DNA of 21,789 nt, from the UHGV virus genome UHGV-1607642, one strand, 5' to 3'. This DNA is from a virus. The notes beneath the pieces are model-generated. The model had not been told where the DNA came from. It saw only the letters and a program-made list of their open reading frames with translations, and did not search any database. The translations under genes and the position numbers were made by a program. This document shows, in pieces, positions 222 to 8,657 of the stretch; positions within the stretch are counted from its first letter, which is position 1; the number at the start of each line of letters is the position of its first letter.

Positions 222-749
222 TTAAAACGGTAAAATCCGTTCGACCCAATCGAACATGGCGACTGTCTTCCTACCGTCCCCCATGTTGAGTGTGACCTGA
301 CAAGCGTCAACGCCTGAAGACACCCCCTCAATTTCACGGCCATCCGCCATGTAGACCCTTATAGACTTCTGCATCTCATGGGCCTGGCGACAAATTTTGA
401 AGAAATCACGGCGAGATGGCCGATTGTCCACATAGTCTGGGTGTATCGTTGTCCGACCCGTGAAGTCGTGTGCAATGCCTTCTGTCACACCTGATTCAAT
501 CGTGCTGATTCGCTCAAGTGGGAGCCTTATACGATTATCTTTGTCGAACGGGGCAGGGCAAAGGTCGACCTTGTTGCGTGACGACATGAGACCCTGAACA
601 TACATGCAGAACACCTGACCATCTTCCATCGTGACCCTTACAGGAATAAGAGACTTGCGCCAGAACATCAGCGCTTTCTCCACGTTGGTGTAATCGCGCG
701 GCCAGACTTCTGCAGGAATCCCGTAGGTGATGTCAGTAATATTCGTCAT
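222..749 (-). CDS. Hypothetical protein with a triplicated h-x-h-x-M-x-D-G motif (about 175 aa)
   Basis: Long ORF in the six-frame track (222..791). Start placed at ATG 749 (MTNITD...), 5 nt from the lipoprotein stop, rather than ATG 791; neither has a clear SD, so the start is uncertain. No recognisable catalytic motif. Confidence 0.45.
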   Translation of the reverse strand: MTNITDITYGIPAEVWPRDYTNVEKALMFWRKSLIPVRVTMEDGQVFCMYVQGLMSSRNKVDLCPAPFDKDNRIRLPLERISTIESGVTEGIAHDFTGRTTIHPDYVDNRPSRRDFFKICRQAHEMQKSIRVYMADGREIEGVSSGVDACQVTLNMGDGRKTVAMFDWVERILPF

Positions 750-753
750 ATCG

Positions 754-1176
754 TCACAGTGTCGTTGGTAAGATATCGATGTCACCAGCATTACTGGTGA
801 ACACCCGGAAGACTTTCGTCTCGCCAGCTTTGGTAATCGTCTCGCGTTCCTGACGAGCAGGATTCAGTGCGCACAGCCCAGCGTCTTCGAGTGAGGCGCC
901 AACAATCCATTCTCCGGCATCCAGATGAAAAGTGACTTTTTCACCTGTTTCCAGTTTTGCAACGGTTTCGCCATTGATGAAGATCGATGCGTCGCAACCG
1001 GCGCCCACCATGCTTTTATCTCTCATAACCACCAGCGTCGATGCCGCCGGAGATTGGTATTTGAATATTCTGGTCTGCGGTGCTGGCTTTGCCTCAGAGA
1101 CAGGAATAGGACGAGATTGACATGCAGTGATAAGTAACGCGGAGGCAGCAACCAGAGGAAGTAATACGTGTTTCAT
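754..1176 (-). CDS. Putative lipoprotein (signal peptide plus lipobox), function unknown
   Basis: Start chosen at MKHVLLPLVAASALLITAC: short positive n-region, hydrophobic h-region and lipobox I-T-A-C. The track's longer N-terminal extension (to 1212) is probably not translated. Confidence 0.6.
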   Translation of the reverse strand: MKHVLLPLVAASALLITACQSRPIPVSEAKPAPQTRIFKYQSPAASTLVVMRDKSMVGAGCDASIFINGETVAKLETGEKVTFHLDAGEWIVGASLEDAGLCALNPARQERETITKAGETKVFRVFTSNAGDIDILPTTL

Positions 1177-1210
1177 TGTGCCGAACAAAATCCTTATCTT
1201 TACGAAAATC

Positions 1211-1230
1211 ATGGCGCCTCAAGGCGCCAT
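1211..1230 (-). terminator. Hairpin (possible attenuator or internal terminator) between the 92-aa gene and the lipoprotein gene
   Basis: ATGGCGCC tcaa GGCGCCAT, GC-rich 8-bp stem; on the minus strand it is followed by GATTTTCG (short U-tract). Confidence 0.35.
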
Positions 1231-1235
1231 AATGC

Positions 1236-1514
1236 TCAATCGAGGCGTTTTAGAATATCGGCCAGATCTTCTTTGGTCATACCCGAGTTTTCGTAAATCT
1301 TCATGACCTTTTCACGAGCCTTTGCAGTAGTCTCTAATGACGTAGCTATCTTATCAAAATCACCCATCGTCATATTGGACAGCACCAGATTGATGATGTC
1401 TGCCTTTGACAGTTTTATGCTGCGTTCACGCAGTCGATTCTGAAAGGTCTCTAGTTTATCGTTTGCTTTTTCGGTTAACTTAACCTGGCAGTTAATAGCG
1501 CGTTTCTCGCTCAT
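1236..1514 (-). CDS. Small hypothetical protein (92 aa), possibly a DNA-binding (RHH-like) regulator
   Basis: ORF starts 2 nt after the helicase stop (translational coupling). N-terminal strand-helix-helix-like pattern; assignment is weak. Confidence 0.45.
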   Translation of the reverse strand: MSEKRAINCQVKLTEKANDKLETFQNRLRERSIKLSKADIINLVLSNMTMGDFDKIATSLETTAKAREKVMKIYENSGMTKEDLADILKRLD

Positions 1515-1516
1515 GC

Positions 1517-3076
1517 TTACTCTCTATCCAAAACAGTGAAATCGAATGTGCTGCCAACCGGCAAGACCCCCTCGGCAAACCCAGGCGTCGTGTCGATAAT
1601 GTGTTTCCGCTCATATGAATGCGACATGAGGTATTTGTTGCTCACGTCGATGAAGTCGGTAATAAAGCACACGTTAGCCTGATTTTTCTTGGCTCGTAAG
1701 CCACGACCGACACGCTGTCTCATTTCAACTTCTGCTTTCCCGCCACCACCCAGAATCACCGCGCCTACGCTTGGAACGTCGACACCAACATCCAGAATGG
1801 TTGAACCAATGAGAACATCTATCTTGCCTGCCGCCAGACTATTAAGTTTTGCTTGTCGGGTAGTCTGGTTTGATTCTCCGTAGATGAAATCGACCTTGAG
1901 GCCACTCTCTTTCATCATTTCCATCAAGATCTGACCATGACGCTTCAGACGAACCAATGTCATACAGTTCAGACCGTGACTCTTGTACATTAGCGCTTCA
2001 CGCACAATAGCTTCGTTGCGGCCCAGATTATAGACGATGCCTAACTGATAGGCTTTCTGGTAAGCCGTGCTCATTCCAACCCGAAAATTCAGGTGTTTTG
2101 AAGCAAGTTCGGCTCTAATCCGCGCCTCATCTGGAGTGTACGCGATTTTATGATATAAAAAGTATGGTTTCGCTAAAATACCTCTGTCGATCAAATATTT
2201 CTCCGTTACTTTTATCTCGATGCGACCCGCAACGGCCATGAGACGCATATTTGCTTCAGTCGAGTCCTTCATGAACGGCGTAGCTGTCAGCGCCAGACGG
2301 TAGTCGGCATTGATGCACAACCGGGCGATGTCGTAGAAGTTAGAACCAGATGATTCGTGTGCCTCTTCCAGAATCAGCAGAGAAACGCTGGACAGGAAGC
2401 GTTTAACCAGTTCCCGGCGCTTCAGGTGGTACTGTTTTTTCTCCGGTGATGCGTCGCGCGGTGGCTCTTCGAGAAAACTGGCCAGGGTCTGCACCGTGGC
2501 AACGTTGATATGGCGCGAGACCTGGAACTCACCCGATCCAATCACCCCAACTCTCTGACCTTTCAGCCACGGCTCGCCATTCTCCGCGCGGTAGTCGATG
2601 GATTTCTGGAAGTTCTCTGCCATCTGGAACATCAGAACCGATCGCGTGGTTAAAAACAGCGTCATACGACCAATGCGAGCAGCAGCCTTACACGCTACGT
2701 TCGATTTACCGCCACCCGTCGCAATCTGGGCAATCATCATCCCTTCGCGCACCAGTGTTTCCACTGTCTGATCCTGATACGCATAGTCCGGGTTATACGG
2801 GAATGGGTTAACTACCGGGTTCGGCTTGCCCAGCGCGGGAGCTTTTTCCTTGCGCACATGCACGCATTTGATGCCAGCTTTCAGAAGGTTGGCTGCAACT
2901 GGCTTCGCAAACCCAGCCGGGAACGCGTTTTTGCTCCAGTTGAACATCGTGCTGGTTCCTTTCCAGTCCCCAGCCTCCACTTCATAGCTCAACATCTCCT
3001 GAACGAGCCGCTTCACGTTGTCATCAGCGCTAGAAATCAGCGCATTGACTGCATTCGATACAATCCGAACTGTCAT
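1517..3076 (-). CDS. SF2 DExH-box helicase family protein (519 aa)
   Basis: Motif I ATGGGKS (Walker A), motif II LILEEAHESSG (DExH), motif III LTATP, motif VI QRVGRGLR, all read directly from the translation. SD AGGAAAGAGG upstream of ATG 3076. Confidence 0.85.
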   Translation of the reverse strand: MTVRIVSNAVNALISSADDNVKRLVQEMLSYEVEAGDWKGTSTMFNWSKNAFPAGFAKPVAANLLKAGIKCVHVRKEKAPALGKPNPVVNPFPYNPDYAYQDQTVETLVREGMMIAQIATGGGKSNVACKAAARIGRMTLFLTTRSVLMFQMAENFQKSIDYRAENGEPWLKGQRVGVIGSGEFQVSRHINVATVQTLASFLEEPPRDASPEKKQYHLKRRELVKRFLSSVSLLILEEAHESSGSNFYDIARLCINADYRLALTATPFMKDSTEANMRLMAVAGRIEIKVTEKYLIDRGILAKPYFLYHKIAYTPDEARIRAELASKHLNFRVGMSTAYQKAYQLGIVYNLGRNEAIVREALMYKSHGLNCMTLVRLKRHGQILMEMMKESGLKVDFIYGESNQTTRQAKLNSLAAGKIDVLIGSTILDVGVDVPSVGAVILGGGGKAEVEMRQRVGRGLRAKKNQANVCFITDFIDVSNKYLMSHSYERKHIIDTTPGFAEGVLPVGSTFDFTVLDRE

Positions 3077-3122
3077 AAACCTCTTTCCTTCGTGCCTTTT
3101 GTATGGTAATTGGCTATTATGG

Positions 3123-3140
3123 TAAGTAAGTACTTATACA
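3123..3140. repeat. Degenerate copy of the TAAGTA-N6-TACTTA element (contains perfect 10-bp palindrome TAAGTACTTA, 3127-3136)
   Basis: TAAGTAAGTACTTATACA sits in the 64-bp divergent intergenic region and abuts ATG 3141. Confidence 0.5.
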
Positions 3141-3839
3141 ATGGATTGTATCAGAATTATGGGTGTGAAAATTACGATTCTGCAGGTGGAAGTCGCGAAC
3201 CTGCGTCCGAATCCCTGGAATACCAACTCCGTTGGGGCGCAAAACTTCGAAAAACTGAAAGGCTCTATCGAAAAATTGGGCTTTTTTAAGCCAATTCTGG
3301 CGCGGGAGTTGGACGGGGGCATTTTTGAGATCCTCGGTGGTGAACACCGCTGGCGTGCCGCGATGGAGCAGGGCATTTCAACGGTTCCCGTCATCTCCGT
3401 GGGCAAAATTAACGATCTGGTGGCCAAACAGATTTCCCTCGTCGACAACGAGCGCTACGGCGAAGACGATCAGGTCGCTTTGCAGCGCTTAATCGAAGAA
3501 ATCCAGTCTGAAATCGACTACCGGTTGTCCGATATCGCCCCGTATGACGACGAAATGGCGGCAACACTCGCCAAAGCGTCCGTTACCGATCTTGAAGCGC
3601 TGGAAGCGCTCTCCCGTGGCGATGACGAGCCGGTCGATGAGGACAAACGCGAGAAAACCGAGCGAGTCGGCGCTGAACACCAGACGATGCGCTTCAAGGT
3701 GACGTTTGATGCGTCAGATCGCGTCGCCGACACCATCAAAACCATCATCAAAGAGCAGGGAATCAATACCGGTAACGAAATGGAGAACGCCGGGGAAGCC
3801 CTGGTGTGGCTGGTCGACTACTACAAGGAGCGTATGTAA
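3141..3839 (+). CDS. ParB/Srx-like N-terminal domain protein 1 (232 aa)
   Basis: ParB-type motif FEILGGEHRWRAAMEQG followed by an acidic C-terminal half. No clear SD; start could also be ATG 3159. Confidence 0.7.
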   Translation: MDCIRIMGVKITILQVEVANLRPNPWNTNSVGAQNFEKLKGSIEKLGFFKPILARELDGGIFEILGGEHRWRAAMEQGISTVPVISVGKINDLVAKQISLVDNERYGEDDQVALQRLIEEIQSEIDYRLSDIAPYDDEMAATLAKASVTDLEALEALSRGDDEPVDEDKREKTERVGAEHQTMRFKVTFDASDRVADTIKTIIKEQGINTGNEMENAGEALVWLVDYYKERM

Positions 3840-4507
3840 TGACCAAAAACTTTGAAATCGTCTATCGAAACCCGGCAGAACTCATCCCGTATGAGATGAA
3901 CGCCAAAAAACATGACGAACAGCAGATCCGCGATCTGGCGGCCGCCATCAAAAAGCGCGGTTTTGACCAGCCGATCACGGTCGACAAGCACGACGTCATC
4001 ATTACTGGCCACGGTCGTCGCGAGGCGGCTCTTCTGGCTGGTCTGGAGCGTGTGCCGGTCATTGTTCGCGACGATCTGAGCGAAGAAGAAGTGAAGGCTA
4101 AGCGTCTGGAAGACAACCGCCTGGCCAGTATTGACTACGACGCCATCAAATTGCAGCAGGAACTGGAATCCCTGGTGCTGGGCGATGTCGAGGTCTTCGG
4201 TTTTGAAGAGCGCGAGCTGAACGTGCTTGTCGGCAGCATGACCGAAGAGATGGAAACCGGCTCTCTGGTGCTCGATCTGGGCGAAGAGACGGAGCGCCAG
4301 AAGGAAGAGCACACCGAGATCAGTCGCGAAGTGGCCTCTGAAGAAGTCCGCGTCATCGACGTATTGGGCTTTAAAACGCTCCCTGCTGGCTCTGCCATTG
4401 TGGTTGGGGATTTGCTTGCCCACATGGAAGAAATCACGGGAGAGAGCGGGGTAGACGCTTTCGTGGCGTATGCGGAGAAAGTTTCTTCTGGGGAGCTGGC
4501 CGCATGA
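3839..4507 (+). CDS. ParB/Srx-like N-terminal domain protein 2 (222 aa)
   Basis: ParB-type motif VIITGHGRREAALLAG with acidic C-terminal half. ATG overlaps the upstream TAA by 1 nt (ATGTAATGA); the track ORF begins further upstream at a non-ATG codon. Confidence 0.7.
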   Translation: MTKNFEIVYRNPAELIPYEMNAKKHDEQQIRDLAAAIKKRGFDQPITVDKHDVIITGHGRREAALLAGLERVPVIVRDDLSEEEVKAKRLEDNRLASIDYDAIKLQQELESLVLGDVEVFGFEERELNVLVGSMTEEMETGSLVLDLGEETERQKEEHTEISREVASEEVRVIDVLGFKTLPAGSAIVVGDLLAHMEEITGESGVDAFVAYAEKVSSGELAA

Positions 4508-5142
4508 GCAAATACACCATCAACGTATCGTTTCAGACCCGCGTGAACAAAACCACGCGCACGCTGGAGATTGCCGAATCGTTCGGTCTTGGCCTGGACG
4601 AAAAAGAGTGGACGCTTTACGACAATCTGGAGCTGGAAGTGAAGCAGGGCGATGTGGTGTACATCACCGGCCAATCCGGTTCCGGTAAATCCGTTGTGCT
4701 GCGCGAGCTGCAACGCCAGATGAAGGATGAAGGGCTTTCTGTAGCCTCCATCGATGACTTTGCCTTCGACAATGAGGTTAACGTCATTGACCAGCTGGGC
4801 AAAACCACCAGCGAAGCGCTGGGGCTGCTGTCTATGGCCGGATTGAATGACGCCTATCTCTTTGTGCGTAAGCCATCCGAGATGTCTGACGGCCAGAAAT
4901 ACCGTCTCAAGATCGCCAAGCTGATCGAGTCCGGCGCGAAAGTCTGGGCTGCCGACGAATTTGGCGCTGTTCTCGACCGTGTAACCGCCCAGGTTGTGGC
5001 GTCGAACCTCCAGCGTGCCGCCCGTAAGGTTGGTGCGACGGTAATGGTGGCGACGACCCACGAAGACCTGAAGAACGCGCTGCGCCCGGATATGCAGATC
5101 ACCAAGCACTACAAAGAACGCGTGAAGGTGGAATATGCCTGA
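4504..5142 (+). CDS. Minimal ABC-type ATPase (212 aa, nucleotide-binding domain only)
   Basis: Walker A GQSGSGKS, signature-like SDGQKYR, Walker B VWAADEF, D-loop GAVLD, H-loop ATTHED. Start overlaps the upstream stop (ATGA); SD GGGAG upstream. No transmembrane partner gene. Confidence 0.75.
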   Translation: MSKYTINVSFQTRVNKTTRTLEIAESFGLGLDEKEWTLYDNLELEVKQGDVVYITGQSGSGKSVVLRELQRQMKDEGLSVASIDDFAFDNEVNVIDQLGKTTSEALGLLSMAGLNDAYLFVRKPSEMSDGQKYRLKIAKLIESGAKVWAADEFGAVLDRVTAQVVASNLQRAARKVGATVMVATTHEDLKNALRPDMQITKHYKERVKVEYA

Positions 5143-5389
5143 TTTGAAGATCGTAGAGCTGAAGCCATCGAAAGAGGCTGACAACAACAACGTTGAAGTC
5201 ATCCGCCTGCTGGAAGAAGCACTCCAGTACGCCAGAGAAGGCAAAAGCCAGAGCCTGGCACTGCTGATGATCAACAACGACGGCAGTGTGCTGGATTGCT
5301 GGCATAACGGTGGGCGTCCATACGTCATGGTTGGGGCGATGGAATCGCTTCGCCTGGACTTCATCAATGCCAATATCGAGCGTAGGTGA
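5135..5389 (+). CDS. Small hypothetical protein (84 aa)
   Basis: ORF overlaps the ATPase stop by 8 nt; SD AAGGTGG upstream. No recognisable motif. Confidence 0.5.
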   Translation: MPDLKIVELKPSKEADNNNVEVIRLLEEALQYAREGKSQSLALLMINNDGSVLDCWHNGGRPYVMVGAMESLRLDFINANIERR

Positions 5390-5394
5390 TCGAC

Positions 5395-6285
5395 ATGACA
5401 GGCATCATCATCAAACGCTACCGCCCGGAAGAGTTCCCGCGTCATCTGGACTTTCTGGAGCGTATGACCGTTACCAAAGGCACGGTTGAAGACTGGCACG
5501 CGCTGAAGTCGCTGCACTACAAGACGGATGGTAAGCCGTTCGCGCCAACGTATTATCGCTGCGAACTGGACGACCGGCTGGTGGGCGTCGTGGTTATGGC
5601 TTACCCGAAACTGCTGCTGGCGCCTCGCCATCGCATGTTTCCTAAGCTGAAGCCAACCACCAATACCACCGTGGCCAACCAGTATTGGGGCCGGTACGTG
5701 AACAACAACTTTGCCGTGATCAGCCGTTCCGTTGTTGACACTCAGTACCGCGGTGTCGGCGTCTCCTATCGAATGATTAACCTGGTTAGCAGGATGCACG
5801 ACCGGCCAATCATCGAGATCCAGTCGTCGATGAGCAAATACAACCCGTTCGCCATGAAAGCAGGGTTCCAGTTCATCCGTCAGGAGCGTCCGAAGAGCTA
5901 TGAGAGTGCGTTGCGCGTCTTCCAGCGTCATTTCCGTTCCGACCCTGGCGACAACGAAGCGATCGTCAAAGAGCTGTTTGCCATGAGTGAGTCTCGCCGT
6001 CGTCGTGCGCTGCGTGATCTGGTCGCTGACTACCACAAGAACAGTTCCCTGGCCAAAGCCGGGCGTAATCGTGGCACGACGATTCAGGACATTGCCGACA
6101 GCCTGGTGGACGAGGCCAGCATCGTGAAGCTGCTCAAGGACATTCACAACCTGAGCTTCACGTCTCCGCTGTATGGCGTGTACCGAAACCCGGACTTTGG
6201 TCGTCAGCTGCCGGACACGCTGCCACTGCTGGCATTCGACAAACAGCCTTTGAATAAACCTCTTGAAATTGCATTACCGGCATAA
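5395..6285 (+). CDS. Hypothetical protein with a GNAT-like acetyltransferase motif (about 296 aa)
   Basis: Start at ATG 5395 with SD AGGTGA 6 nt upstream. Segment AVISRSVVDTQYRGVGVSYRMINL fits the GNAT motif A (R/Q-x-x-G-x-G/A), read by eye; the ~130-aa C-terminal extension is unassigned. Confidence 0.5.
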   Translation: MTGIIIKRYRPEEFPRHLDFLERMTVTKGTVEDWHALKSLHYKTDGKPFAPTYYRCELDDRLVGVVVMAYPKLLLAPRHRMFPKLKPTTNTTVANQYWGRYVNNNFAVISRSVVDTQYRGVGVSYRMINLVSRMHDRPIIEIQSSMSKYNPFAMKAGFQFIRQERPKSYESALRVFQRHFRSDPGDNEAIVKELFAMSESRRRRALRDLVADYHKNSSLAKAGRNRGTTIQDIADSLVDEASIVKLLKDIHNLSFTSPLYGVYRNPDFGRQLPDTLPLLAFDKQPLNKPLEIALPA

Positions 6286-6294
6286 GGATTTGCC

Positions 6295-6561
6295 ATGACG
6301 TTGACCGACAAACAAAAAGACATCATCAAAACCATCAATTTAGGCCATGAGCGTGGGCATCTGCTCGATCTGGACGAGCTGCTTGAAGTGCTGCCGTACA
6401 AAACGACCAAACAGAGTATGCAGTTCTCTATCCGCGCACTGGTGAAAAAGGGGCTGGTGGAGAAAGGAATGTGCCGCCAGCGCGGTGATTCCGGCTACCA
6501 CCGTCGCACGCTGGGACTGACCACGTTAGGTCGTGCCAGAGCCAAATTACTGGTGATGTAA
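6295..6561 (+). CDS. Small winged-helix-like DNA-binding protein (88 aa)
   Basis: ORF with SD AAGGA. Size and basic C-terminal half suggest an HTH/wH regulator; the fold assignment is an inference. Confidence 0.45.
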   Translation: MTLTDKQKDIIKTINLGHERGHLLDLDELLEVLPYKTTKQSMQFSIRALVKKGLVEKGMCRQRGDSGYHRRTLGLTTLGRARAKLLVM

Positions 6562-6586
6562 GTCGGTCTGGGAGCCAGTTTGAGAG

Positions 6587-6641
6587 CCTGCTTCCGTATA
6601 TATAAATACTAAGTGACTTATTAAATATATACGGAAGCAGG
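6587..6641. promoter_or_regulatory. Large perfect inverted repeat (17-bp arms, 21-nt spacer) with a nested TAAGTgACTTA palindrome
   Basis: CCTGCTTCCGTATATAT ... ATATATACGGAAGCAGG. The spacer contains TAAGTGACTTA (6610-6620). No flanking T-tract, so it is not a typical intrinsic terminator. Confidence 0.6.
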
Positions 6642-6756
6642 TTCTGAATACTCCCCAGCCCGGTTTTAAACACCCAGAAAACAAATTGGTTAGGCACTGA
6701 ATTAAACAAGTTGTTTAGGAGCGCAAGGATGCGCTCTGAGTGTTTTAGAGGGATCT

Positions 6757-7398
6757 ATGACTGTAGAAAAAGACGAGAGCAAAACTCGCCTGACACCAGC
6801 TGAGTGGGCAGAAGCCGAAGCGAAGTGGACTTCCGGCGAATACACACTCTCCAGGCTGGAGGAAGAGTACGGCATTCGTCGTGAAACGCTCTCCAGACAT
6901 TTCAAAAAGCGTGGATTAGAGAAAGGCGCGGACTCCGTTGGGAAGATGGTGCGCGAGTCGCTCAAATCCGACGCAGAGCTGCGTGCGAAGGCGCGTGCAG
7001 AGAAAATCGAAGAGCGCCGGACTCGTTACGACGATTGGGCGTTCGCACTCGGTCGTATGGTGATGCATGAGGTGGCCACAGCCAAGAAGGACGGCAGGCC
7101 ACTGGCAGCCATCGAAGATGACCTGAAGAGTCTCCAGCGTGCCAGCGGCACACTCGCTAAGTGCTTCGAAATATCGTCGAAAGCGCTCGGTATGGATCGC
7201 GTGGAGAACGAGGACGACGAAATCCCGAACCTGGTATTTGGCGAACTTACGCCTTCCCAGGTGGCGCAGCTGCGTAAGGAAGATGATGAGCCGGATCTGA
7301 TTGATGACGATCTGCTTGAGTCACTCGAAGAGGAAGCACTGAGCGAAGCTGAGGGCGATTCTGAAGCGTCTGGTGATGAAAGTGATGGGAGCGTCTGA
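6757..7398 (+). CDS. Terminase small subunit (213 aa)
   Basis: Sits immediately upstream of the large terminase. N-terminal HTH-like segment YTLSRLEEEYGIRRETLSRHF and strongly acidic C-terminus. SD AGAGGGA upstream. Confidence 0.7.
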   Translation: MTVEKDESKTRLTPAEWAEAEAKWTSGEYTLSRLEEEYGIRRETLSRHFKKRGLEKGADSVGKMVRESLKSDAELRAKARAEKIEERRTRYDDWAFALGRMVMHEVATAKKDGRPLAAIEDDLKSLQRASGTLAKCFEISSKALGMDRVENEDDEIPNLVFGELTPSQVAQLRKEDDEPDLIDDDLLESLEEEALSEAEGDSEASGDESDGSV

Positions 7399-7400
7399 CT

Positions 7401-8657
7401 ATGGCCATCCCGTCGTCTCTGAGTCTCGTACAGCTGCATTCTGGGCAGATGCAAGTCTTCCAGTCGCCACATCGTTTCAAAGTGGTGTGTGCGGGTCGAC
7501 GCTGGGGTAAATCCCGGTTGTCGATCTCCACCATCATCCGCGCGGCAGCCAAAGAGAAGAAGCAACGTGTCTGGTATGTCGCACCGACTTACCAGATGGC
7601 TCGCCAGATCTTGTGGGATGACCTGCAGGAAGTTCTGCCGCGCAAATGGGTTCGTAAGAAAAACGACACCACGATGACCATCGTGCTGAAGAACGGCTCT
7701 GAAATCGCGCTGAAAGGTGCGGATAAGCCCGATACGCTTCGTGGTGTGGCACTGCACTTTGTGGTGCTCGATGAATTTCAGGATATGAAGCCTGACACCT
7801 GGTACAAGGTACTGCGTCCGACACTGTCCTCCACCCGTGGCGGTGCGCTGATCATCGGTACGCCAAAAGGCTTCTCCGAGTTCCACAAGCTGTGGACTAT
7901 CGGTCAGAACAAAGATTTGCAACGCAAGGGGCAGTGGAAGAGCTGGCAGTTCGTTACGGCCGATTCTCCGTTCGTACCGAGCGCGGAAATCGAAGCAGCG
8001 AAGAACGATATGGACCCTAAATCGTTCGCACAGGAATACCTGGCCAGCTTCGAAAACATGTCCGGACGCGTTTACTACCCGTTCGACCGCAATGTGCATG
8101 TGAAGCCACTCCAGTTCAATCCGAAACTGCCGATCTGGGTTGGTCAGGACTTCAACATCGACCCTATGTCATCGGTCATCCTGCAACCGCAGCCAAATGG
8201 TGAACTGTGGGCTGTGGACGAATTGGTGTTGTTCTCTTCTAACACGGCTGAAGTGTGTGACGAGCTGGAGCGTCGATACTGGCGCTGGAAATCTCAGGTC
8301 ACTATCTTTCCTGACCCGGCAGGTGCGTATCGCCAGCACGCACGCGGCGAATCTGACGTCGACATCTTCAAAGAGAAAGGTTTCCTTCGAGTCGACTATC
8401 CGAAGAAACACCCACCGATCGCAGACCGTGTGAACGCCGTGAACCGCATGTTAATGAGCGCCTCGGGCGAAACACGGTTGTACGTCGATCCGAAGTGCAA
8501 ACACTTAATCGACTCACTGGGGAAGGTGATCTACAAGCCAGGCTCACGCGATATGGATAAGACAGGCGGCGTCGAGCACAGTGCGGATGCGTTGGGGTAT
8601 CCGGTTCATCGTAGGTATCCAGTGAAAAATCGTGTTATTCTTGGTGGATCCAGATAA
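7401..8657 (+). CDS. Terminase large subunit (418 aa)
   Basis: Walker A VVCAGRRWGKS and Walker B HFVVLDEF in the N-terminal ATPase; C-terminal nuclease-like acidic motifs (WVGQDFN, IFPDPAG, HSADALG). SD GGGAG upstream. Confidence 0.9.
   Translation: MAIPSSLSLVQLHSGQMQVFQSPHRFKVVCAGRRWGKSRLSISTIIRAAAKEKKQRVWYVAPTYQMARQILWDDLQEVLPRKWVRKKNDTTMTIVLKNGSEIALKGADKPDTLRGVALHFVVLDEFQDMKPDTWYKVLRPTLSSTRGGALIIGTPKGFSEFHKLWTIGQNKDLQRKGQWKSWQFVTADSPFVPSAEIEAAKNDMDPKSFAQEYLASFENMSGRVYYPFDRNVHVKPLQFNPKLPIWVGQDFNIDPMSSVILQPQPNGELWAVDELVLFSSNTAEVCDELERRYWRWKSQVTIFPDPAGAYRQHARGESDVDIFKEKGFLRVDYPKKHPPIADRVNAVNRMLMSASGETRLYVDPKCKHLIDSLGKVIYKPGSRDMDKTGGVEHSADALGYPVHRRYPVKNRVILGGSR

What the first reader, a model, noticed from the sequence alone, without database searches (positions are those of the whole stretch)
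1236..3076. Divergently transcribed SF2 DExH helicase co-translated with a 92-aa protein
A 519-aa helicase with a ~110-aa unassigned N-terminal region is translationally coupled to a small, possibly RHH-like protein and points away from the packaging genes across a 64-bp divergent control region. Helicase-plus-small-partner units are a recurring architecture in phage defence and in phage replication or anti-defence modules. The location next to the morphogenesis block rather than within an obvious replication module is atypical.
Basis: partly seen in the sequence, partly recalled or inferred. Interest (0 to 1): 0.6.

Follow-up and report, generated by a model that had tools for sequence, protein, structure and literature searches.

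The report
UvsW-type helicase with small DNA-binding partner
The two genes are real and form a small operon in an SSU5-like phage-plasmid: a T4 UvsW-type DNA branch-processing helicase followed by a small ribbon-helix-helix DNA-binding protein, a conserved core pair rather than a defence system, so the finding is largely ordinary with one modestly new detail.

Summary
A 519-aa SF2 helicase (1517-3076, minus strand) is followed after TAA-gc-ATG by a 92-aa ORF (1236-1514). A strong hairpin follows, and 64 bp separate the helicase from a divergent ParB-like gene.

The window is an SSU5-like phage-plasmid, 97% identical to Salmonella phage SSU5 and 99.9% to an E. coli plasmid.

The helicase belongs to the T4 UvsW family. 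The "unassigned" N-terminal ~100 aa is the UvsW_N domain.

The 92-aa protein has an N-terminal ribbon-helix-helix domain (CopG-like) plus a conserved C-terminal helix. It is not homologous to T4 UvsW.1, but it sits in the same place.

The position next to the packaging genes is not atypical. In 110 of 111 related loci from alpha-, beta- and gammaproteobacterial elements, the helicase lies divergent from the same ParB-ParB-ABC-p299-TerS-TerL block. In 88 of 118 loci, an RHH homologue lies downstream on the helicase strand.

Published RNA-seq of the relative Cyrano shows the pair transcribed in the lysogen while the packaging operon is silent.

Best reading: a core recombination and fork-processing helicase plus an RHH regulator or targeting factor. 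The defence reading is poorly supported.

Novelty: a new member of a known kind. Interest: about 0.3.

The parts
1517..3076 (-). UvsW-family SF2 DNA helicase, 519 aa (= SSU5_124; CYRAN_118 'UvsW helicase'). Residues ~1-95 form the UvsW_N domain, followed by two RecA-like lobes.
1236..1514 (-). 92-aa protein (= SSU5_123, CYRAN_117, phrog_1466). It has an N-terminal ribbon-helix-helix DNA-binding domain (about residues 5-47) and a C-terminal helical tail ending in a conserved 'MTKEDLxxILKRL' helix.
   Evidence: hhalign against independent positional orthologues gives prob 96%, E 2e-9. The expanded profile hits CopG 1b01/2cpg at E 3.7e-6.
1515..1519 (-). Gene junction: helicase stop TAA (1519-1517), then 2 nt, then the ATG of the 92-aa gene (1514-1512).
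1210..1233 (-). Hairpin (11-bp stem, UUGA loop) immediately after the 92-aa stop codon, followed by GAUUUUCG. It is a likely terminator or 3' stabiliser of the two-gene operon.
   Evidence: -21.2 kcal/mol, z -3.9, 0 of 200 shuffles fold as well.
3077..3140 (.). 64-bp divergent control region between the helicase and the ParB-like gene. It holds a conserved -10-like element (CATAAT / TATAAT) for the helicase direction and a direct repeat TATGGTAA-N8-TATGGTAA (3102-3109, 3118-3125).
   Evidence: median gap 64 nt in 110 related loci. No canonical sigma-70 promoter was found by the simple scan.
3141..8657 (+). Conserved divergent neighbour block: ParB_N protein (3141-3839), ParB_N protein (3806-4507), ABC-type ATPase (4504-5142), 84-aa ORF, 299-aa protein of unknown fold (5386-6285), TerS-like (6757-7398) and TerL (7401-8657). 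This is context, not shown to act with the helicase.

Best explanation
The element is an SSU5-like phage-plasmid. Genes 1517-3076 and 1236-1514 form a two-gene leftward operon that is a fixed core feature of this phage lineage.

The first product is a UvsW-type SF2 helicase. By homology to T4 UvsW and T5 D10, it should translocate on branched DNA. Expected activities are branch migration of Holliday junctions and D-loops, regression and restart of stalled forks, and possibly unwinding of R-loops. It would work with the element's own T4-like recombination set: a gp32-like SSB, a RecA/UvsX-like recombinase, an Mre11/Rad50-like nuclease and RNase H.

The second product is a dimeric ribbon-helix-helix DNA-binding protein with a C-terminal helical tail. 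I take it to be mainly a transcription regulator acting at the 64-bp divergent control region. There it would autoregulate the helicase operon and/or hold the divergent ParB-to-terminase packaging operon off in the plasmid-prophage state. A second possibility is that it is a DNA-targeting partner of the helicase, the positional analogue of T4 UvsW.1.

Shown: gene structure, family membership, fold of both N-terminal domains, conserved synteny, and transcription in a lysogen of a relative.

Inferred: the biochemical activity, the in vivo role, the DNA target of the RHH protein, and any physical contact between the two proteins.
For: Identity of the element: 96.9% to SSU5 over 6.4 kb. There are 269 E. 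coli places, all on plasmids.

Helicase:
- The profile of 42 homologues hits T4 UvsW 2oca best (E 8e-27), aligned from UvsW residue 15 to 464. The N-domain motif 'GxWDGR' is included.
- Full-length homologues at 47-50% identity pass Pfam UvsW_N above its gathering score. 25 of 42 family members match it.
- Relatives are already annotated 'UvsW helicase' in phage Cyrano and in Rhizobium phage RHph_Y2_11.
- UvsW and T5 D10 biochemistry is described in PMC5180179 and PMC6337909.
- SSU5 encodes a gp32-like SSB (E 9e-72), a RecA-family protein (E 1e-42), Mre11/Rad50-like proteins and a 5'-3' exonuclease.

Core status:
- 110/111 related loci have the ParB gene divergent, with a median gap of 64 nt.
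- 83/83 keep ParB2 and ABC, 81/83 keep p299 and 77/83 keep TerL.
- Hosts span alpha-, beta- and gammaproteobacteria.

Small protein:
- An iterative profile search over all 9370 ORFs of these loci converged on 88 hits. Every hit lies on the helicase strand and downstream of the helicase; none lies elsewhere.
- hhalign of the window's family against 52 independent positional orthologues gives prob 96.2% and E 2.2e-9 over 92 columns.
- The expanded profile hits CopG (E 3.7e-6, whole protein), Reg576 (1.3e-4) and TTHA0139 (3e-4). Members hit Pfam RHH_1, ParG, RHH_3 and RHH_10.

Expression (PMC9928086, S1 Table), in LF82 carrying Cyrano:
- The 92-aa orthologue reads 114, 12x the local background and comparable to the master repressor at 96.
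- The helicase reads 46.
- The divergent ParB gene reads 5, and terminase and capsid genes read 7-8.

T4 parallel: uvsW, then the small uvsW.1, then a terminator, is conserved in T4-like phages (PMC1524935). UvsW.1 has been called a 'potential DNA-binding partner' (PMC7824862).
Against: - No biochemistry exists for this protein. XPB/Rad25 scores as well as UvsW on the helicase core, so the core alone does not fix the substrate.
- T4 UvsW is a late protein (my recollection), whereas this operon is on in the lysogen. The in vivo role may therefore differ from T4, for example plasmid-state fork repair.
- The window's helicase itself does not reach Pfam UvsW_N. The assignment rests on profile, structure and homologues.
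- The RHH link of the window's own family to CopG is weak when tested directly (hhalign E 0.02, prob 2.4%). It depends on the transitive step through positional orthologues.
- The AF2 monomer of the 92-aa protein is only moderately confident (pLDDT 69), and fold searches were uninformative.
- 30 of 118 loci lack a detectable RHH homologue. In many others a small membrane protein lies between helicase and RHH, or the RHH gene is 1-3.7 kb away. The pair is therefore not obligate.
- No operator has been demonstrated, and the simple scan found no canonical promoter in the 64-bp region.
Confidence: 0.72

Rival explanations
1. The RHH protein is mainly a helicase accessory subunit rather than a transcription factor. 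Its RHH dimer would bind a specific DNA site or structure, and its conserved C-terminal helix would dock on the helicase. The helicase would thereby be loaded at a defined place, such as an origin R-loop, the pac region or a recombination hotspot. This would be a non-homologous replacement of T4 UvsW.1.
For: - Same-strand, downstream linkage persists down to 39-50% helicase identity.
- Spacing is tight or overlapping in many lineages: 2 nt here, and -4 or -1 in L134, L187, L194, L195 and L198.
- The C-terminal helix 'L(S/T)xE(Q/D)LxxLL' is conserved and distinct from the DNA-binding domain.
- There is a T4 precedent of uvsW followed by uvsW.1 (PMC1524935, PMC7824862).
Against: - There is no sequence similarity to UvsW.1 (hhalign prob 0.2%).
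- In many loci another gene intervenes, or the RHH gene is kilobases away, and 30 of 118 loci lack it.
- In the Cyrano lysogen its mRNA is 2.5-fold above the helicase and at master-repressor level, which fits a regulator better.
- RHH proteins are overwhelmingly repressors (general knowledge).
Confidence: 0.3
2. The helicase works with the divergent ParB-ParB-ABC-p299 block as part of one packaging-linked DNA-processing machine. It might clear branches or prepare the pac/cos region for terminase, rather than acting in general recombination-dependent replication.
For: The adjacency to ParB, ParB, ABC, p299, TerS and TerL is near-invariant in about 110 loci across three proteobacterial classes, with a conserved ~64-nt divergent junction. 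T4 uvsW also lies among late morphogenesis genes.
Against: In the Cyrano lysogen the two sides are regulated in opposite ways: helicase operon on, ParB and terminase off. No known system combines these families (PADLOC and NCBIfam gave only generic hits). Synteny alone may reflect an ancient fixed genome order.
Confidence: 0.2
3. One reading: the pair is a prophage-encoded defence or anti-defence module expressed in the lysogen.
For: Both genes are transcribed in the lysogenic state, and the small gene was listed as a 'moron' in Cyrano (PMC9928086). The helicase core gives PADLOC hits to PbeA (E 2e-22) and type IV restriction helicases.
Against: - The PADLOC and NCBIfam matches cover only the generic SF2 core and fall far below family cut-offs, for example dnd_restrict_1 at 57 bits against a cut-off of 600.
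- There is no nuclease or other effector domain.
- The N-domain is UvsW_N.
- The gene is a fixed-position core gene in about 110 related elements, not a variable hotspot gene.
- The small protein has no PADLOC hit.
Confidence: 0.05

Closest known systems
Bacteriophage T4 UvsW helicase (PDB 2OCA, 1RIF; Pfam UvsW_N + SF2 core) with its downstream partner gene uvsW.1
   Different: Identity to UvsW is only about 17% in the structural alignment. The downstream protein is an RHH protein unrelated to the helical UvsW.1. The operon is transcribed in the lysogen of a temperate phage-plasmid, whereas T4 UvsW is a late lytic protein (from memory).
Bacteriophage T5 D10 branch-migration helicase and archaeal/eukaryotic XPB (Rad25)
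   Same: Same SF2 subgroup. XPBII and Rad25 are the next-best sequence and fold matches. D10 is a demonstrated branch-migration enzyme related to UvsW and XPB (PMC5180179).
   Different: XPB has a damage-recognition N-domain and a thumb motif rather than UvsW_N. No small RHH partner is described for D10 or XPB.
CopG / Arc / Mnt / ParG class of ribbon-helix-helix repressors
   Same: The N-terminal ~45 residues of the small-protein family align with the whole of CopG (E 3.7e-6). Members reach Pfam RHH_1 and ParG. It is small and encoded in the operon it may regulate, next to a divergent promoter region, as with P22 mnt/arc (from memory).
   Different: It has a ~45-residue C-terminal helical extension with its own conserved motif. 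It is not ParG-like in architecture, because ParG has its RHH at the C-terminus. SSU5 has a separate ParA plus small-protein partition cassette elsewhere. The operator is unknown.

Membership tests
UvsW-family SF2 helicase | SF2 core with motifs I, II (DExH-type), III and VI intact | tested here: met
   ATGGGKS, EEAH, TATP and QRVGRGLR are invariant in 42 homologues. Pfam DEAD, ResIII and Helicase_C score above their cut-offs.
UvsW-family SF2 helicase | N-terminal UvsW_N domain (Pfam PF21241) | tested here: met
UvsW-family SF2 helicase | UvsW is the closest solved relative over the full length | tested here: met
UvsW-family SF2 helicase | ATP-dependent branch migration, fork regression or R-loop unwinding | not testable with these tools
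   Needs purified protein and branched DNA substrates.
T4 UvsW.1 family (small partner) | Sequence or profile similarity to UvsW.1 | tested here: not met
   hhalign A1 vs UvsW.1 gives prob 0.2%. UvsW.1 is not among the PDB sequence or fold hits.
Ribbon-helix-helix (CopG/Arc/MetJ) superfamily | Beta-strand, helix, helix motif detectable by profile against solved RHH proteins | tested here: met
   Profile A5 hits CopG at E 3.7e-6, Reg576 at 1.3e-4 and ParG at 0.056. The window family is linked to those members at hhalign prob 96%. The direct A3-CopG comparison is weak but in register. The AF2 monomer shows helices 15-30 and 37-45 after an unstructured N-terminal strand region.
Ribbon-helix-helix (CopG/Arc/MetJ) superfamily | Dimerisation through the ribbon and sequence-specific operator binding | not testable with these tools
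   No multimer prediction was available. EMSA or footprinting is needed.
Known anti-phage defence systems (PADLOC: Pbe, Dnd restriction, type IV REase, Druantia, DISARM, BREX helicases) | Match to a system-specific model over its length, plus the system's partner genes nearby | tested here: not met
   Only partial helicase-core matches were found (PbeA E 2e-22; others above 1e-9). NCBIfam dnd_restrict_1 scores 57 bits against a cut-off of 600. No partner genes are present, and the small protein has no hit.

The most novel reading that the evidence does not exclude
A conserved two-part device in which a sequence-specific RHH protein directs or gates a UvsW-type branch-migration helicase at a defined site of a phage-plasmid. 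The device would control the switch between plasmid-mode (Rep3 initiator) replication in the lysogen and recombination-dependent concatemer synthesis for packaging. It would sit at the divergent junction with the packaging operon for that reason.
Probability: 0.12. Interest if true: 0.6.

Novelty: new member of a known kind. Interest (0 to 1): 0.3.

Why it matters
SSU5-like phage-plasmids are common in clinical E. coli, Klebsiella, Salmonella and Yersinia.

This analysis removes a 'hypothetical' and a 'moron of unknown function' label. The helicase is a UvsW-type recombination/fork-processing enzyme. The small protein, transcribed in the Cyrano lysogen, is an RHH DNA-binding protein conserved with it across three proteobacterial classes.

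The analysis also gives two concrete, cheap experiments: an EMSA on a 64-bp region and a Walker A mutant. These bear on how such elements regulate the border between a lysogen-expressed operon and the silent packaging operon.

It does not reveal a new kind of system.

Tried and rejected
- Direct Pfam, NCBIfam and PADLOC scans of the 92-aa protein found nothing.
- phmmer and hmmsearch of the close family (A1, A3) against PDB sequences gave only chance hits.
- Homology to T4 UvsW.1 is rejected.
- The ParG-type partition centromere-binding role is rejected. The architecture is reversed, and SSU5 and the Rhizobium phage have separate ParA plus small-protein cassettes.
- The search for related loci with the divergent small-protein alignment failed, and the search with P0159 found nothing in viral contigs. 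I therefore went through the helicase instead.
- The simple sigma-70 scan found no promoter in the 64-bp region or upstream of the 92-aa gene.
- The 299-aa neighbour gave no Pfam or PDB sequence hit.
- The paper of Kerr et al. 2007 on UvsW and UvsW.1 was not available. Statements about the UvsW.1 fold are therefore from memory or from PMC7824862.
Full report
**What is in the sequence.** The mechanical ORF list contains a 519-aa ORF at 1517-3076 and a 92-aa ORF at 1236-1514, both on the minus strand. The junction reads GAGAG-TAA-gc-ATG, so the two reading frames are 2 nt apart. Directly after the 92-aa stop codon there is an 11-bp-stem hairpin followed by GAUUUUCG (-21.2 kcal/mol, z = -3.9). 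Upstream of the helicase, 64 nt (3077-3140) separate it from a divergent ParB_N gene. Further along the plus strand lie a second ParB_N protein, an ABC-type ATPase, an 84-aa ORF, a 299-aa protein without any family match, a TerS-like protein, TerL, and head and tail genes. The one refinement is that the unit looks like a closed two-gene operon.

**Where the window comes from.** The first 6.4 kb are 96.9% identical to Salmonella phage SSU5, where the two genes are SSU5_124 and SSU5_123. They are 99.9% identical to an E. coli plasmid. 251 of 5426 complete E. coli genomes carry the locus, always on a plasmid. The window is thus part of an SSU5/pHCM2-type phage-plasmid. This group is described by Pfeifer et al. 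(PMC7969092) as the largest phage-plasmid supercommunity.

**The helicase.**
- Pfam sees only the generic SF2 core from residue 99 onward and nothing in residues 1-112 on their own.
- The protein has 1842 homologues. Several at 47-50% identity carry Pfam UvsW_N above its gathering score. 25 of the 42 members of my alignment match that domain.
- A profile of the 42 sequences finds T4 UvsW (2oca) as the best solved relative (E 8e-27). The alignment runs from UvsW residue 15 to 464 and includes the N-domain motif GxWDGR.
- The AlphaFold model is confident (pLDDT 90.6).
- All helicase motifs are invariant. Motif II is EEAH.
- The gene is already called 'UvsW helicase' in phage Cyrano and in Rhizobium phage RHph_Y2_11.

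The 'unassigned N-terminal region' is therefore the UvsW N-terminal domain. T4 UvsW and its T5 relative D10 are branch-migration and fork-regression enzymes acting in recombination-dependent replication and repair (PMC5180179, PMC6337909). SSU5 encodes the rest of a T4-style set: a gp32-like SSB, a RecA-family recombinase, Mre11/Rad50-like proteins, a 5'-3' exonuclease, a ligase, and DnaB-like helicase and primase. It also has a Rep3-type plasmid initiator.

**The 92-aa protein.**
- It matches phrog_1466 end to end and has close homologues only in enterobacterial SSU5-like elements.
- An exhaustive profile search of 1.8 billion representatives found just 25 relatives.
- Direct searches against Pfam and PDB sequences were empty.
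- The monomer model was mediocre, and the fold searches on it were uninformative.

Because those direct searches failed, I turned to genome context to reach more distant relatives. I fetched 119 loci around distant helicase homologues from viral and genome collections. An iterative profile search, started from the window's family, was run over all 9370 ORFs of these loci. It converged on 88 hits. Every hit lies on the helicase strand downstream of the helicase, and none lies anywhere else. An independent alignment of the 52 non-enterobacterial positional orthologues matches the window's family over 92 columns (hhalign probability 96.2%, E 2.2e-9).

The expanded profile hits the whole of CopG (E 3.7e-6), Reg576 (1.3e-4) and TTHA0139 (3e-4). 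Single members reach Pfam RHH_1, ParG, RHH_3 and RHH_10. The protein is therefore an N-terminal ribbon-helix-helix domain (about residues 5-47) followed by a charged linker and a conserved terminal helix (MTKEDLADILKRL here, L-S/T-x-E-Q-L-x-x-L-L in the wider family).

It is not related to T4 UvsW.1. It is also not a ParG-type partition protein, because the architecture is reversed and separate ParA cassettes exist.

**Conservation of the neighbourhood.**
- Among 111 related loci with enough upstream sequence, 110 have the ParB gene divergent from the helicase, with a median gap of 64 nt.
- Among 83 loci with 7 kb of flank, 83 keep the second ParB gene and the ABC ATPase, 81 keep the 299-aa protein and 77 keep TerL.
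- Hosts include Magnetospirillum, Paracoccus, Sphingomonas, Paraburkholderia, Massilia, Acinetobacter, Halomonas/Vreelandella, Photobacterium, Xenorhabdus and Yersinia pestis. Many of the contigs are 90-118 kb long.

The position beside the packaging genes is therefore the rule, not an oddity. T4 uvsW is likewise embedded among head and baseplate genes.

The RHH gene is less fixed:
- It is immediately adjacent in many lineages.
- It is separated from the helicase by a ~63-aa membrane protein in others.
- It is 1-3.7 kb away in a few.
- It is undetected in 30 of 118 loci, mostly alphaproteobacterial, which carry an unrelated ~60-aa coiled-coil gene instead.

Counts are of loci, not of independent lineages. 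The hits comprise 78 distinct small-protein sequences in 56 clusters at about 60% identity.

**Expression.** Published RNA-seq covers E. coli LF82, which carries the SSU5-like phage-plasmid Cyrano (about 83% nucleotide identity to this region). It lists CYRAN_117, the orthologue of the 92-aa gene, among prophage genes expressed in overnight LB culture, at 12-fold above local background. The normalised values are:
- 92-aa orthologue (CYRAN_117): 114
- helicase CYRAN_118: 46
- putative master repressor: 96
- divergent ParB gene: 5
- terminase and capsid genes: 7-8

These come from PMC9928086, Table 1 and S1 Table. The operon is thus active in the plasmid-prophage state while the packaging operon 64 bp away is silent. 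The distal small gene is the more abundant transcript. This fits a regulator and differs from the late expression of T4 UvsW (the T4 timing is from my own knowledge).

**The control region.** The simple consensus scan finds no sigma-70 promoter there. An alignment of relatives shows a conserved -10-like hexamer (CATAAT or TATAAT, TAnnnT down to 58% helicase identity) about 35-40 nt before the helicase start. It also shows a direct repeat, TTAnnATA-N8-TTAnCATA in the helicase orientation (TATGGTAA twice on the plus strand, 3102 and 3118), which overlaps that hexamer. This is a candidate operator, no more.

**Interpretation.**
- I am confident (about 0.9) that the helicase is a UvsW-family enzyme.
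- I am confident (about 0.85) that the small protein is an RHH DNA-binding protein.
- I am confident that the pair is a core operon of this phage lineage rather than an accessory defence module.
- The in vivo role is inferred by homology: processing of branched DNA, with the element's own recombination proteins, in fork repair and recombination-dependent replication.
- For the RHH protein I favour a transcription regulator acting at the divergent junction (about 0.55) over a helicase-targeting partner analogous to UvsW.1 (about 0.3).
- A packaging-linked role of the helicase with the ParB/ABC block cannot be excluded (about 0.2).
- The defence reading is unlikely (about 0.05). It has only generic helicase-core matches, no effector, a fixed core position and no hit for the partner.

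**Novelty.** The helicase is a new member of a known kind and is already annotated as such in some records. The modestly new points are three. First, the lysogen-expressed 'moron' CYRAN_117/SSU5_123 is an RHH protein. Second, this RHH family travels with UvsW-type helicases across three proteobacterial classes, in the place where T4 has the unrelated UvsW.1. Third, the helicase|ParB divergent junction is almost invariant. I found no paper that links UvsW with SSU5 or with an RHH protein.

Noticed in passing
window 3141-6285 (+), and the same block in L004, L006, L088-L205 and L215: A near-invariant gene block lies directly upstream of the terminase genes: two ParB_N proteins, a soluble ABC-type ATPase and a ~300-aa protein with no Pfam or PDB sequence match. 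The ~300-aa protein is annotated in some records as the acetyltransferase part of COG2401/MK0520. Its function is unknown. It is silent in the Cyrano lysogen. It may be more interesting than the helicase.
   Followed up: partly
L004 2437-2727, L005 2437-2760 (minus strand of locus); L215 3971-4273: In distant relatives a Tad2-like/DUF2829 gene (a family that includes an anti-Thoeris protein) is inserted between the ABC ATPase and the ~300-aa protein. The window has an unrelated 84-aa ORF there (5135-5389). This may be a small variable slot inside the conserved block.
   Followed up: no
window 222-791 (-): A full-length FljA-like protein (Pfam Flag1_repress, E 1.9e-95), the repressor of phase-1 flagellin, is carried by the phage-plasmid. 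A DUF2846-like lipoprotein gene lies next to it (754-1212). Both are annotated in SSU5 as SSU5_121 and SSU5_122.
   Followed up: no
window 3057-3066 and 3143-3152; also 3133-3154: A perfect 10-nt inverted repeat, GATACAATCC / GGATTGTATC, lies in the first codons of the helicase and of the divergent ParB gene and brackets the 64-bp region. A palindrome, TACAAT-gg-ATTGTA, overlaps the ParB start codon. It is conserved only in the closer relatives, so it may be coincidental.
   Followed up: partly
L092-L110 and many other loci, the ORF immediately downstream of the helicase: In many non-enterobacterial relatives a ~61-68-aa predicted membrane protein with an acidic tail ending in 'IGF' lies between the helicase and the RHH gene. 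Alphaproteobacterial relatives instead have a ~60-aa 'RLVDPVHFF...' coiled-coil protein and no detectable RHH homologue.
   Followed up: partly
L215 9961-10874 (Rhizobium phage RHph_Y2_11): A small ParA plus a ParG-like (C-terminal RHH) pair lies 1.4 kb downstream of the UvsW-type helicase. This suggests the isolated Rhizobium phage is also a phage-plasmid of the same deep lineage.
   Followed up: partly
L003 7678-9441 (T4 RefSeq NC_000866): The RefSeq T4 record still annotates uvsW as one 587-aa ORF. Its last 76 residues are UvsW.1 according to the literature (PMC1524935).
   Followed up: no
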